Shown one piece after another: positions 1,590-49,456 of a stretch of 64,000 bases of DNA. The stretch spans positions 37,386,001-37,450,000 of the forward strand of contig OX597821.1 of assembly GCA_951406725.2 (NCBI GenBank), written 5' to 3'. This DNA is from Octopus vulgaris. Taxonomy: Eukaryota. A program made the translations under genes and the position numbers. The stretch's first letter is position 1, and every line of letters begins with the position of its first letter. The notes under the pieces were generated by a model. The model was not told where the DNA came from. It ran no database searches and saw only the letters and a list, made by a program, of their open reading frames with translations.

Positions 1590-3685
1590 TTTAGTCATTT
1601 GCCATTGTATTGGAATGGGTTTAAGGATGGCGACCTCTTCAGAAAAATGCTTCTTCCTACTTTTTTCCTCTTTCTTTTTCTCCTTTTTTGAGTTATATTT
1701 AGAATACACAATGTACTGTCTCCCTTTTTCTTTCAGACATTCAATTTTGGAGAGAATTTTTTGATGAAATGTAGTTCCATTGATTTTCGGTATTGCGGAT
1801 TGTCCCGTGCACATTTGTGAAAGGGAAAAAAATTTCTAATTTTCCATCGCTGCATATTTCCAGATGGAATTTTGCACAATTCCTCTTGTCGGCTATATTG
1901 CCCGTAGATTCTTGCACGTTGGCAGAGGGAATTACTTGTTTCGCCAATGTGATTTTCTTTGCAGTTTGGGAAGGTAATGCAATATATGAGATTTTGCGTT
2001 TTGCAGTTCATATCTGCATTTATTTTGAAAAGGGATCTACTCTTGAATTTTATGTGGGAACCACTTTCCAAATATTTGAAGTTGTTGATGATGTTGCATG
2101 TTCCACATCTCCTATCTCCACATTCTTTTACTAAGAATCATTCCCTGATTTGAATTCTGCCCTTGTAAGGTGTTTTTTAAAGGATTTTTGGTTGGCATCT
2201 GCTATTCCGTAAGGCGTTTTTTCAATCAGATTTTTTAGTTTGGGGCTTTGTAGGAGTATAGCAAAGGTCGATTGTATGGTGTGAAAGATGTTGGTTATTC
2301 CTGGACTGTATGTGTTAACGAACAGAATCGTGTTTTCATTAACTTTTTCCTTGTGTCCGTAGTTGGGTGATGTTCAGTTTCATTGCCTTTTCAATTCCCT
2401 TATTAATTAATCTAAGGGGTATTTCTGCAGTGTGAGGAAGCCTTGGAGTTCAGTGAATCAGATATCACGTATTTTGGAGTCAGTTACTATAGCACAGATG
2501 CGTCTTGCCATGCTGTATGGGATGTTTCTTTTGACGTGTGATGGATGGCAAGAGTAGACATTTGAATACTGGTGTGTGTCAGTTTTTTTGTAAAATATGT
2601 CTGTTGTGACTGCGGAGTTCTGTATTTTTATGTGGATATCCAGGAATGGCAATTCATTACAACTGGCTTCTGTCGTGAATTTGATGGATGGATGAAGTGT
2701 GTTCAGTATATTGTTAAATATATTTAGATCTTCATTCAATTTGTCCCAGAAGATGAAGCAATCATCAAAGAAGTGTTTCCACTTTTTAATGATATATTTC
2801 TTGTACTCCTGATCAAAAGTTTTACCTACTTCCTCATAAAGCTTTTCTTCCAAGCATCTCATGACTAAGTTCGCATTTGAGGGTGAAAACCGCGTACCCA
2901 TAGCTGAACCCTTTTATCTGTCGATATGTTTTATTGTCGAATCTAAAAGTATTTTCTTATAGTACTAGGTGTGTGGCCTTGGTGATGAAGTCAGTCTTGA
3001 AGGGTTCATTTATCTGTCCTCTATGATTCTCTACCCAGCGCTTGACTGCTCCTAGGCCTAAAGTGTGAGGTACATTAGTATAGAGATTCATAACATCAAA
3101 ACTTGTGAGTATAGTACCTTCTGCGACAGTGGGAGGGATGTGTTGGATGAAATCTATGCCATCCCGTACATAACTGGGTATTGAAGGGTACAAAAGTTTT
3201 AGGAGTATATCTAAAAAATGACTCAGTTGTTGTGTTGGTGCTTGAGGTCCAGCAACTAATGACCTTAGTATTTTTTACGTACTGGTTCTTCTGCTTTTTT
3301 ATGGCACTTTGTATTCCGGAGCTTTTGTGGATTTTGGGTAATCCGTAGAAATTGCTCTCTTTCATTACAGAGTTGCATAGATACTCTTTCTCCTTGTCTG
3401 TGAAGGAATCTTGGAATTCATTGATTAGTCTTCTGATCTTACTCATTATTGTTTGTTTTTTTCTGGGTGTCTTGGTTCTTCCTTATAGTAGGTTTGGTTT
3501 GTTAACATTTCCAATATTTTATCTTTATAATAGTCCTTGTCAGTGATTACTATCATCCCTCCCTCATTGGCTTCTTTTAGGATGATTCAGTTGTAATTTT
3601 TCAGTGTTTGTAAGGCTTCCTTTTCTTCTTCACGAAGATTTTGTTTGCATCTGTGGTTATTCAGGGGGAATTTTGAAATCGAGTC
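1590..3685 (-). mobile_element. Penelope-like retroelement (RT plus GIY-YIG endonuclease), frameshifted
   Basis: Minus-strand pieces in order: NLREEEKEAL..KEANEGG (decayed DKG motif), FYGLPKIHK, SFDVMNLYTNVP, MGTRFSPSNANL, WKHFFDDCF, LPFLDI, SCHPSHVKRNIPYS, then NLIYCITFPNCKENHIGETS (GIY-YIG), ending FIKKFSPKLNV. Confidence 0.93.
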
Positions 3686-20677: not shown

Positions 20678-21067
<390 letters not shown>

Positions 21068-21433
21068 CAAGAGTAAATGAATGGAGTAAATAGGATCCGG
21101 GTTACATATGTTTCATAGCAGGCGAAACCTCAGAAGTGGTAAATATCTAAGCGACGTGTGTACCGTAGGCTATTCTTTAGGCTAAGGATATCTTGATTAA
21201 ATGAAAGTTTACATTGTCGCAAGAAGGTACGTGTTAACACATGGATGGAGGTACATGTTAACACATTGAATCTTCCATGTGTTAACATGTACCTCCTTGC
21301 GACAATGTAAAGTTTCAGTTAATCAAGATATCCTTGGCCTGAAGTGTTGCCTACGGTATACATCTCGCTTGGATATTTACCGCTATGAAAAATATGTAAC
21401 CCGGATCTTATCTACTCCATTGCTTAACTCTTG
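21068..21433. mobile_element. 366-bp fold-back (palindromic) MITE with TA flanks
   Basis: TA|CAAGAG...CTCTTG|TA. Arms are complementary almost throughout, e.g. GATCCGGGTTACATAT/ATATGTAACCCGGATC, AAGGATATCTTGATTAA/TTAATCAAGATATCCTT, TTTACATTGTCGCAAG/CTTGCGACAATGTAAA. Confidence 0.88.
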
Positions 21434-21855: not shown

Positions 21856-22682
21856 AATCTATCCATCTACAATTACTGTAATCTTTAAGTGCTAGTATTT
21901 AAATAATTCAATAAATCTTTTGAAATCTGATGGATGAGTATTCATATGTCTAAAGACTAATAGGAGAACATCGTCGTATAATCTGAAATTTGCTACGTAA
22001 GTCCGCGAATCTTATAAGGATTACATGTAAAATGCCTAATGAAATCCTTTCGTGAATTTTTGCTGCAACCATGGAATCCATAGTGACACGAATAAAACAA
22101 TTCCATATTGGTAAATCTATAGAGTATTATCAAAATATGATATCGATCCTGCATGTACAAAATGCTTTGTCTCCAAACTATTTTGCTGACAGTAGGGTAA
22201 TAATCAATGATATCCAACTTTGAGAATTTGTTTTGTTATTTGTTATTTACAGCATTAAACTAAATGGAAGATTTTGACTCCAGAAAACTAGGTATGCAAT
22301 TCATCTAATTTTAAGAATTGTATTGTGTAAGGGAAATTTACAAATTATTCCTATTTCGGTTTTGGGTTAATTAATATAAACGGTAGATTTACTGATGGAA
22401 TTCAATTTAAGGTCCTCAGAAGTAAAGTATGGCTTGTGCAATGCTGGAAATTCAACGCTGTCATCTCAGTTTAAATTTGAAGTGATTTCTTTGGCTTCTG
22501 AATTATTGAGTTGATTTTATTTCTGTCGTTTTTTGAACCTGTTGGAAATCAATTTGTACGTATTAAGATCTATTTCATGTGTTTTTGTTTCGCCTGATTG
22601 AACAATAATTTTGGTTTGAGAGTTGAAGTGATGGTTTTCCTAAAATAGTTCTTAGTTATTTTAATACTTTTCCAATCATACA

Positions 22683-25782: not shown

Positions 25783-25814
<32 letters not shown>

Positions 25815-26016
25815 GTTAATCCAAACATGAAAGAACAAAAAAAATCACAACAACGCGAGGACGTGGATCACATATAGTATTATTGGACGCTCAGGAAAGA
25901 AGGAATGAAGGATGGTTTAACGTTTCGAGCGGAGCTCTTCGTCGGAAACACAGGAGAAGGAAAGATCCAGAGAAGGGAAGACAGAGGAAAAAAAATCGCC
26001 AACGGTACACACGCGG

Positions 26017-26018
<2 letters not shown>
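25815..26018 (-). mobile_element. 204-bp hammerhead-bearing insert within (TA)n
   Basis: Unique sequence bounded by TA arrays (about 25790-25814 and 26019-26053), with a central hammerhead. Confidence 0.7.
25915..25949 (-). ncRNA. Minimal type-I hammerhead ribozyme (U4C variant, palindromic stem III)
   Basis: Minus strand: GTTT CCGACGA a-GAGC-tcc-GCTC GAAA CG TT^ AAAC. Stem I GTTT/AAAC, 4-bp stem II, ACGT palindrome in place of stem III. Confidence 0.75.
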
Positions 26019-26080
<62 letters not shown>

Positions 26081-48609: not shown

Positions 48610-48930
48610 TGTGCGTATATATACACATACACACACACACATACACATGTAATAAATAAGAGAGGCATTCAGTTATCTGTGTCTTTCAAGAAACAACATA
48701 GTCATTATTTTAAAGTGTTCCAAGTCTGATGAATATCTCTTTGTTATATCGTTAAAAATTGTTCATTCTGTTAATAAACATCGGCGAATTTGTAATAAAT
48801 ATCACATCTTACAATTAATCGTCTAGATATACACACACTGAAATAGATGCACAAAAATCTTCATAAACTTTCCTAATACATACGCACATGCATGCGTATA
48901 TATTCATGTATATATACATACATACATACA

Positions 48931-49456
48931 TACATACATACATACACACAAAGTATAAGCTTACGAAGTACTGAGGATGTAAAGATGTATAAATATATTT
49001 TTAATACACTTCTCTCCACCAGAATATGAAATATATTCGCTACTGAATTTTATCTAGGAGAAGAATTTCTCCCTATAGAGCTTTCGTGTAAATACACATC
49101 AAGTCAAAATCTAAGAGATTCTAGTAGACTACCAGACACGGCCTTTCAACATGATTTCGCCTCTTCAGTGCCACATACCTCCTCAGTGAATGATACATAC
49201 ATACACACACACAAAGTATAAGCATACGAAGAACTGAGGATTTAAAGATGTATAAATATATTTTCAATACACTTCTCTCCACCAGAATATGAAATATATT
49301 CGCTACTGAATTTTATCAAGGAGAAGAATTTCTCCCTATAGAGCTTTCATGTAAATACACATCAAGTCAAAATCTAAGAGATTCTAGTAGACTACCAGAC
49401 ACGGCCCTTCAACATGATTTCGCCTCTTCAGTGCCACATACTTCCTCGGTGAATGA
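48931..49456. repeat. Tandem duplication, 2 x 263 bp
   Basis: CAAAGTATAAGC at 48949 and 49212; GTGAATGA ends at 49193 and 49456; few substitutions. Confidence 0.95.

What the first reader, a model, noticed from the sequence alone, without database searches (positions are those of the whole stretch)
25815..26018. Second, unrelated hammerhead cassette nested in (TA)n
Seen: a 204-bp insert between TA arrays with GTTT CCGACGA aGAGCtccGCTC GAAA CG TT^AAAC. Stem III is only the palindrome ACGT, which implies cleavage as a dimer; core variants are U4C and a GUU site. The sequence is unrelated to the 20760 cassette, so at least two families share one architecture (about 200 bp, hammerhead, TA target) within 6 kb. 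This suggests a diverse, abundant class hidden inside microsatellite-masked sequence.
Basis: partly seen in the sequence, partly recalled or inferred. Interest (0 to 1): 0.72.

Follow-up and report, generated by a model that had tools for sequence, protein, structure and literature searches.

The report
Solo Penelope retrotransposon end with hammerhead
This 204-base insert is the repeated end-piece of a protein-coding Penelope-type jumping gene, present thousands of times in TA repeats and carrying a predicted self-cutting RNA motif already known from such elements; the only unusual point is that most short copies start at one fixed spot, which likely shows they were copied from uncut RNA.

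Summary
The insert, the hammerhead and the predicted cut site (25919/25918) are real. It is not a new cassette class. It is a solo pseudo-LTR (pLTR) of a Neptune-type Penelope-like element (PLE): the same sequence flanks an RT + GIY-YIG frame in other copies. The motif has 11,130 exact matches in the genome, and 29 of 30 sampled copies end in (TA)n. The 20760 cassette is the end of a different PLE with Hydra-clade motifs, so the two are separate families of one known class. Minimal dimer-type hammerheads in pLTRs, TA targeting and natural U4C are in print. This scan found the same kind before on other DNA of this genome. Residual interest: 21 of 30 sampled copies start in a 19-nt window, none further upstream and none at the cut site. 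That fits internal priming on an uncut transcript. C4 is the main core in this family and common in the other one. Cleavage is untested. New member of a known kind; low interest.

The parts
25815..26018 (-). Solo pLTR of a Neptune-type Penelope-like element (5' end 26018, 3' end 25815)
   Evidence: 92% over 218 nt to the 3' pLTR and 90% to the 5' pLTR of ORF-bearing copy L147; top 40 genome hits 93-100% over nearly the full length
25915..25949 (-). Minimal type I hammerhead motif (stem I GTTT/AAAC, core, stem II, palindromic helix III)
   Evidence: sequence, descriptor scan, cross-family conservation
25939..25945 (-). Core strand CCGACGA (C4 variant, C7), followed by one extra A at 25938 before stem II
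   Evidence: C4 in 78 of the first 100 listed copies, U4 in 20, A4 in 2, counted by eye
25927..25937 (-). Stem II GAGC-TCC-GCTC with G10.1-C11.1
25918..25926 (-). GAAA, palindrome ACGT, GUU site; predicted cut between 25919 and 25918
   Evidence: cut position inferred from hammerhead numbering, not tested
25789..25814 (.). (TA)n target tract at the element's 3' end
   Evidence: 29 of 30 sampled copies have TA here against 6-11% background
26019..26053 (.). (TA)n tract at the element's 5' end, followed by (AG)14; no target-site duplication can be read inside the repeat
20760..20940 (+). Comparison feature: truncated pLTR of a second PLE with Hydra-clade motifs

Best explanation
The insert is a solo pseudo-LTR of a Neptune-type Penelope-like retrotransposon, likely pasted into a (TA)n tract by the element's own endonuclease and reverse transcriptase, and likely copied from an uncut transcript. 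Shown: the same ~205-bp sequence flanks an RT + GIY-YIG frame on both sides in full copies; its 3' end is fixed at the pLTR/5'UTR junction (GGATTAAC-TTTATATAC); it sits in TA; short copies start in a narrow window at about -10 to +8. Inferred: transcription starts near TTCAAAATG inside the upstream pLTR; the endonuclease nicks (TA)n; reverse transcription starts internally at the first pLTR/5'UTR junction and runs ~210 nt to the RNA 5' end, giving a solo pLTR. Predicted: the hammerhead is inactive as a monomer and would cut only as a dimer of two pLTRs or with protein help, so solo copies keep it whole. Odds: identity as PLE pLTR about 0.93; this route for solo copies about 0.5.
For: Parent: 11 of 13 fetched ORF loci of the closest group have the insert sequence downstream of the ORF in the same orientation, 3 also upstream; 7 of 7 loci of a younger sister family carry a ~75% identical pLTR. 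P0001 has GLRF, DKG, RYIDD, a CX4CxxC linker, a GIY-YIG-type motif with internal CxxC and two conserved His and weak Pfam RVT_1 and GIY-YIG hits. 41 exact tandem junctions. 3' ends: 13 of 30 end AAC-TTTAT, 11 of 30 AAC-TATAT. 5' ends: 21 of 30 position-ordered copies in -10..+8, 0 of 30 beyond -10, 0 of 30 at the cut site near 101; 627 of 3,151 copies that reach -9 match on to -14. Solos and extended copies share all common variants. Monomer fold pairs the core with the helix III strand, P 0.63-0.97. In vitro, a Poseidon PLE starts RT internally near the pLTR-ORF junction, uses uncut RNA, and needs protein for hammerhead cleavage (PMC11167929, parts 1-2 of 4 read).
Against: No transcription start was measured. 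Upstream pLTRs at tandem junctions do not pile up at the same spot: 5 of 30 in -10..+8 against 21 of 30 for solos (Fisher p 6e-5), although none of them ends between -10 and -500. In the sample chosen by the hammerhead pattern 6 of 30 extend past -10 and 16 of 30 start in -10..+5, so the wall is less sharp there. The wall sequence (AT/TG-rich) offers microhomology to TA/TG targets. Both Pfam hits are below the curated cut-offs, and no solved structure matched. The nearest-neighbour energy of the active dimer (-5.7 kcal/mol) is far above the best two-strand fold (-22.5). Solos cluster slightly on the tree (34 changes against 40.8 shuffled, 3 of 300), which leaves room for solo-to-solo copying. 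The two best parent copies are damaged (L146 lacks the 5'UTR, L147 has stops). The Poseidon start site has no homology to the target, whereas half the ends here do.
Confidence: 0.8

Rival explanations
1. Ordinary 5' truncation: the solo is the 3' end of a full-length copy whose reverse transcription stopped at a strong pause or microhomology site at the border of the CA-rich 3'UTR.
For: 5' truncation is the norm for PLEs (PMC8557442 passages). Shorter and longer truncations exist. Ends fall on T/A/TG microhomologies.
Against: At the truncation rate seen over positions 9-135, about 5% of copies should end in a 19-nt window; 21 of 21 that reached it did. No stable structure in the insert (z -0.16); the sequence just upstream of the wall was not folded.
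Confidence: 0.2
2. Self-propagating solo pLTR (SINE-like): solos are transcribed from the internal promoter into their TA flank and copied in trans by the PLE protein. Compatible with the best explanation as an added route.
For: Would give the same 5' wall; 11 of 30 copies end AAC-TATAT without the junction's TT; weak tree clustering of solos; Penelope has an internal promoter (PMC2377424, abstract only).
Against: No column past the 5' end separates 107 solos from 47 extended copies as a fixed difference; the G/T variant ratio does not differ (p 0.13, counts by eye, test). A Pol III route is unlikely: T8 run at position 24, no exact A or B box.
Confidence: 0.2
3. Solo made by recombination between the two pLTRs of a full insertion.
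For: Direct repeats ~5 kb apart exist; proposed for solo pLTRs in a rotifer (PMC3846280 passages).
Against: Solos should then inherit the 5' ends of upstream pLTRs, but the distributions differ (21 of 30 against 5 of 30); junctions are rare (41 exact) against thousands of solos.
Confidence: 0.06
4. One reading: an independent class of ~200-bp hammerhead cassettes (retrozyme-like) that multiply through self-cleaved, circular RNA.
For: Right size, type I hammerhead, thousands of dispersed monomers; animal retrozymes derive from pLTRs (bioRxiv 10.64898/2026.07.22.740005, part 1 of 5 and passages).
Against: The sequence is the terminal repeat of an ORF-bearing element. No head-to-tail unit array was seen among loci I printed; the three neighbouring copies in L147 are separated by TA tracts. 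No copy starts at the cut site (0 of 30).
Confidence: 0.04

Closest known systems
Neptune-clade endonuclease-positive Penelope-like elements (as described in Craig et al. 2021, PMC8557442; passages read)
   Same: C-terminal GIY-YIG after RT, CX2-5CxxC linker, CCHH motif, pLTRs in partial tandem, hammerhead near the 3' end, microsatellite insertion bias.
   Different: Here the 3'UTR is a 1.5-3 kb CA-rich low-complexity tract; clade assigned by motifs only, no tree against named references.
[quoted passage not shown]
   Same: Short stem I, extra base between 9 and 10.1, G10.1-C11.1, palindromic 15.2-16.2, mostly single dispersed motifs tied to truncated PLEs, thousands per genome.
   Different: Core has C4; stem II is 4 bp rather than the 7-8 bp reported for Schistosoma. 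U4C is not mentioned in the parts read; figures and supplements were not seen.
Poseidon element of Anolis carolinensis (Frangieh et al. 2024, PMC11167929; parts 1-2 of 4 read)
   Same: AT-rich target, fixed 3' ends at the pLTR junction, no sign that hammerhead cleavage is needed for insertion.
   Different: Different clade; its two RT start sites define a 30-40 nt tail and have no homology to the target, whereas the two end classes here differ by 2 nt beside an encoded TATATA.
Animal non-LTR retrozymes (bioRxiv 10.64898/2026.07.22.740005, part 1 and passages; PMC7229834, search listing only)
   Same: Short non-coding unit with a type I hammerhead, related to pLTRs, many monomers.
   Different: Defined by head-to-tail tandem units and no ORF; this family is ORF-linked and its copies are dispersed singles.
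Natural U4C hammerhead of a viroid (cited in Perreault et al. 2011, PMC3088659; passages read)
   Same: Same core change; reported to lower activity in vitro yet suffice in vivo.
   Different: Rare there; here it is the majority core in one family and about 45 of 100 listed copies of a second, unrelated family.

Membership tests
EN+ Penelope-like element, Neptune type | RT with PLE motifs (GxKF-like, DKG, YxDD) | tested here: met
   GLRF 92, DKG 205, RYIDD 446 in P0001; RVT_1 E 6e-4, below Pfam cut-off
EN+ Penelope-like element, Neptune type | C-terminal GIY-YIG endonuclease with CCHH | tested here: met
   YCIKCNRCRMLYIG 714, RFTEH 736, VARH 752; GIY-YIG E 0.008, below cut-off
EN+ Penelope-like element, Neptune type | CX2-5CxxC linker between RT and EN | tested here: met
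   CSRSRCNTC at 674; motif definition from PMC8557442, which also gives it for Nematis
EN+ Penelope-like element, Neptune type | pLTR direct repeats from partial tandem insertion | tested here: met
   L146, L147, L156; 41 exact junctions
EN+ Penelope-like element, Neptune type | Microsatellite (TA)n insertion bias | tested here: met
   29 of 30 and 25 of 30 in two overlapping samples against 6-11% background
EN+ Penelope-like element, Neptune type | Inverted partial copy lacking the 3' tail | tested here: inconclusive
   Seen in L010 and the L178/L179 pair; not counted; far commoner in the 20760 family
EN+ Penelope-like element, Neptune type | RT phylogeny groups with named Neptune elements | not tested
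   No named reference PLE proteins were fetched; Neptune versus Nematis rests on the linker motif
Minimal type I hammerhead of PLEs | Core boxes with stems I and II, extra base after A9, G10.1-C11.1, palindromic 15.2-16.2 | tested here: met
   one departure, C4 for U4
Minimal type I hammerhead of PLEs | Core conserved above its flanks between active lineages | tested here: met
   26 of 26 against 126 of 178 (one pairwise comparison)
Minimal type I hammerhead of PLEs | Self-cleavage as a dimer | not testable with these tools
   Folding energies do not favour the active dimer; needs an assay
Non-LTR retrozyme | Head-to-tail tandem units without an ORF-bearing parent of the same sequence | tested here: not met
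   ORF-linked; single copy here
Non-LTR retrozyme | Abundant small circular RNA | not testable with these tools
   Only contigs of runs not on record as RNA were available
Pol III SINE | A and B boxes, no early T run | tested here: not met
   No exact A or B box; T8 at position 24
Hydra-clade PLE (20760 cassette) | RWK, DKT, CxCX5C linker, CxxC and CxH beside conserved E and N | tested here: met
   RWK 53, DKT 129, CNCKNESSC 578, CRLC 683, CRH 711 in the 727-aa frame of L286; definition in PMC8557442; 21% identical to P0001

The most novel reading that the evidence does not exclude
This genome holds an in vivo record that Penelope-like elements mass-produce solo pLTRs by starting reverse transcription inside an uncut transcript and running to its 5' end, while their hammerheads are kept switched off: C4 has spread in two unrelated PLE clades, and C7 lets the monomer lock its own core in a hairpin. 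The ribozyme would then be a damped, protein- or dimer-gated switch under selection rather than a processing step of transposition.
Probability: 0.35. Interest if true: 0.5.

Novelty: new member of a known kind. Interest (0 to 1): 0.25.

Why it matters
As a class it is known: PLE ends with minimal hammerheads in TA repeats. It matters for annotation, since more than 11,000 motif copies of this family and 7,700 of the neighbouring one lie in microsatellite-rich DNA. The role of PLE hammerheads is an open question; a family with a fixed 5' start, no cut-site footprint, and C4 and U4 subfamilies side by side gives a ready test of whether cleavage matters for transposition.

Tried and rejected
Rfam scan: no hammerhead among the 150 of 190 rows shown, nearly all microsatellite noise. 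Pfam on two broken fragments: nothing. PDB sequence search with P0001: 0 hits. The alternative upstream sequence in L020 was host flank, not a second parent. A solo-only subfamily marked by the GACCGCG variant looked likely after but fell when one search showed extended copies with that variant. A defined element start at TTTCAAAATG with nothing upstream was rejected. Expression: no RNA holder listed; laying 4 of 23 runs, all contigs, showed presence of the family only and no starts or ends; this is no evidence either way. Pol III promoter rejected. Lunse et al. 2017 on dimer-cleaving PLE hammerhead variants was not held; I saw only its title and a review's summary, so it may already cover C4. 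Searches listed no paper on a fixed 5' start of solo pLTRs; I judged this from listings and the passages read, and repeat libraries such as Repbase or Dfam could not be searched.

Full report
Observation. The + strand shows a 204-bp stretch, 25815-26018, between two TA tracts. C3 is at 25945 and the predicted cut lies between 25919 and 25918. My minimal descriptor found only this site in the window; a looser one added two weak sites and still missed the 20760 motif. The whole insert folds no better than shuffles (z -0.16). It shares only T runs with the 20760 cassette.

Copy number and target. The window lies in an unnamed 2.8-Gb genome (G000). A DNA search gave 1,224 candidates; the 40 scored were 93-100% identical over nearly the full length. 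The 30-nt hammerhead pattern has 11,130 exact matches, which include sister subfamilies; a 29-nt pattern from the 3' part has 6,254; reversed controls gave 0. In the first 30 position-ordered copies, 29 have TA directly 3'; in the first 30, 25 do by the same script; background is 6% in the window and 11% in far flanks. The two samples overlap in part. The 3' end is fixed at GGATTAAC: 13 of 30 go on TTTAT, 11 of 30 TATAT.

The parent element. 307 copies continue 5' of the insert into a shared CA-rich tract of 1.5 kb or more, then into RT and endonuclease fragments. A protein search gave 10,159 candidates, 150 scored. I fetched 20 of these loci. Of the 13 in the closest group, 11 carry the insert sequence downstream of the ORF in the same orientation and 3 also upstream; all 7 of a younger sister family carry a ~75% identical pLTR downstream, 4 also upstream. 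L147 shows the full layout: TA, pLTR, junction GGATTAAC-TTTATATAC, 5'UTR, ORF with stops, CA-rich 3'UTR, pLTR, TA. L146 keeps an 806-residue open frame, P0001, but lacks the 5'UTR, so its first residues come from the pLTR. P0001 has GLRF, DKG, RYIDD, a CX4CxxC linker and a GIY-YIG-type domain with CCHH. Pfam hits are weak. By the motifs given in PMC8557442 (passages) this is a C-terminal-endonuclease PLE of Neptune type. No tree against named references was built.

The 20760 cassette. It has 1,344 candidates at 99% identity, often with an inverted partial copy. I fetched 4 of its longer loci; one, L286, has two pLTRs around a 727-residue frame with RWK, DKT, CxCX5C, CxxC and CxH, the features listed for the Hydra clade. 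It is 21% identical to P0001.

The hammerhead. It has every architectural mark reported for minimal PLE hammerheads: extra base after A9, G10.1-C11.1, palindromic 15.2-16.2 (PMC4209133, parts 1-2). That paper found no monomer activity and low dimer activity for a Schistosoma example. Between the window copy and the sister family, 26 of 26 core and stem II bases are identical against 126 of 178 elsewhere, which points to selection in active lineages. Position 4 is C in 78, U in 20 and A in 2 of the first 100 listed copies (by eye). In the Hydra-type family it is C in about 45 of 100 (7,723 matches, by eye). U4C is a known natural variant with lower in vitro activity (PMC3088659 passage). In the 35-nt monomer the core pairs with the helix III strand (P 0.63, 0.97, 0.90 in three natural copies), an inactive fold; the active dimer scores -5.7 kcal/mol against -22.5 for the best two-strand fold. 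Such energies ignore tertiary contacts. Cleavage was not tested.

How solo copies arise. Against a natural reference end, 21 of 30 copies start between -10 and +8, none further upstream, and none near the cut site at 101 (the other starts are 17, 23, 24, 66, 78, 85, 108, 113, 126). At the rate seen downstream about 5% should end in such a window. Genome-wide, 627 of 3,151 copies that reach -9 match on to -14; some loss is due to mutation. In the hammerhead-pattern sample 6 of 30 run past -10. Upstream pLTRs at 30 of 41 junctions are spread out: 5 in the window, 19 shorter, 6 beyond -500, none between -10 and -500. The simplest reading is an RNA 5' end near -10 and internal priming at the first junction on uncut RNA. 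This matches in vitro results on a Poseidon element: internal RT start near the pLTR-ORF junction, uncut RNA as main substrate, protein-assisted hammerhead (PMC11167929). It is inferred, at about even odds. Solos (107) and extended copies (47) share their variants (copies not spanning the pLTR were dropped, 8 junction copies were not labelled), with weak clustering on the tree (34 changes against 40.8, 3 of 300 shuffles), so solo-to-solo copying is not excluded. Recombination fits poorly because the two 5'-end distributions differ (p 6e-5).

What is known. PLE pLTRs with minimal hammerheads, their abundance as single motifs, and TA bias are published. Earlier notes of this scan reached the same class for other loci of this genome; I had reached my reading before that call and did not check their loci. 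I could not read Lunse et al. 2017 or the supplements and figures of the papers above, which may list C4 cores. Verdict: real, a new member of a known kind, interest 0.25.

Noticed in passing
window 1916-3679, - strand: Decayed RT and endonuclease remnant, 23-36% identical to P0001: an older PLE.
   Followed up: no
window 22119-22624, - strand: Remnant 29-33% identical to the Hydra-type frame of L286.
   Followed up: no
window 21150-21172, + strand: Short look-alike of the cassette's 5' end (seen by eye); not returned by blastn.
   Followed up: no
window 52562, - strand: CTGATGA...GAAA motif with 5-6 bp stem I but only 2 bp stem II; may be another PLE end or chance.
   Followed up: no
L159-L165: Younger sister family with long open frames (803-927 codons) in several near-identical copies, same core and stem II, GUC site and a weaker stem I.
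   Followed up: partly
L147:8410-9268: Three pLTRs in a row separated by TA tracts, from at least two subfamilies: repeated insertion into the same TA site puts hammerheads about 330 bp apart.
   Followed up: partly
L004, L052, L064, L070, L162: Copies of the Neptune-type and Hydra-type ends share the same or neighbouring TA tracts.
   Followed up: no
L051, L055, L056, L064, L075: Five alignments begin at position 71, just before the hammerhead core, a possible minor truncation hotspot next to TATG.
   Followed up: no
window 48930-49456: 263-bp unit repeated twice at 96%.
   Followed up: no
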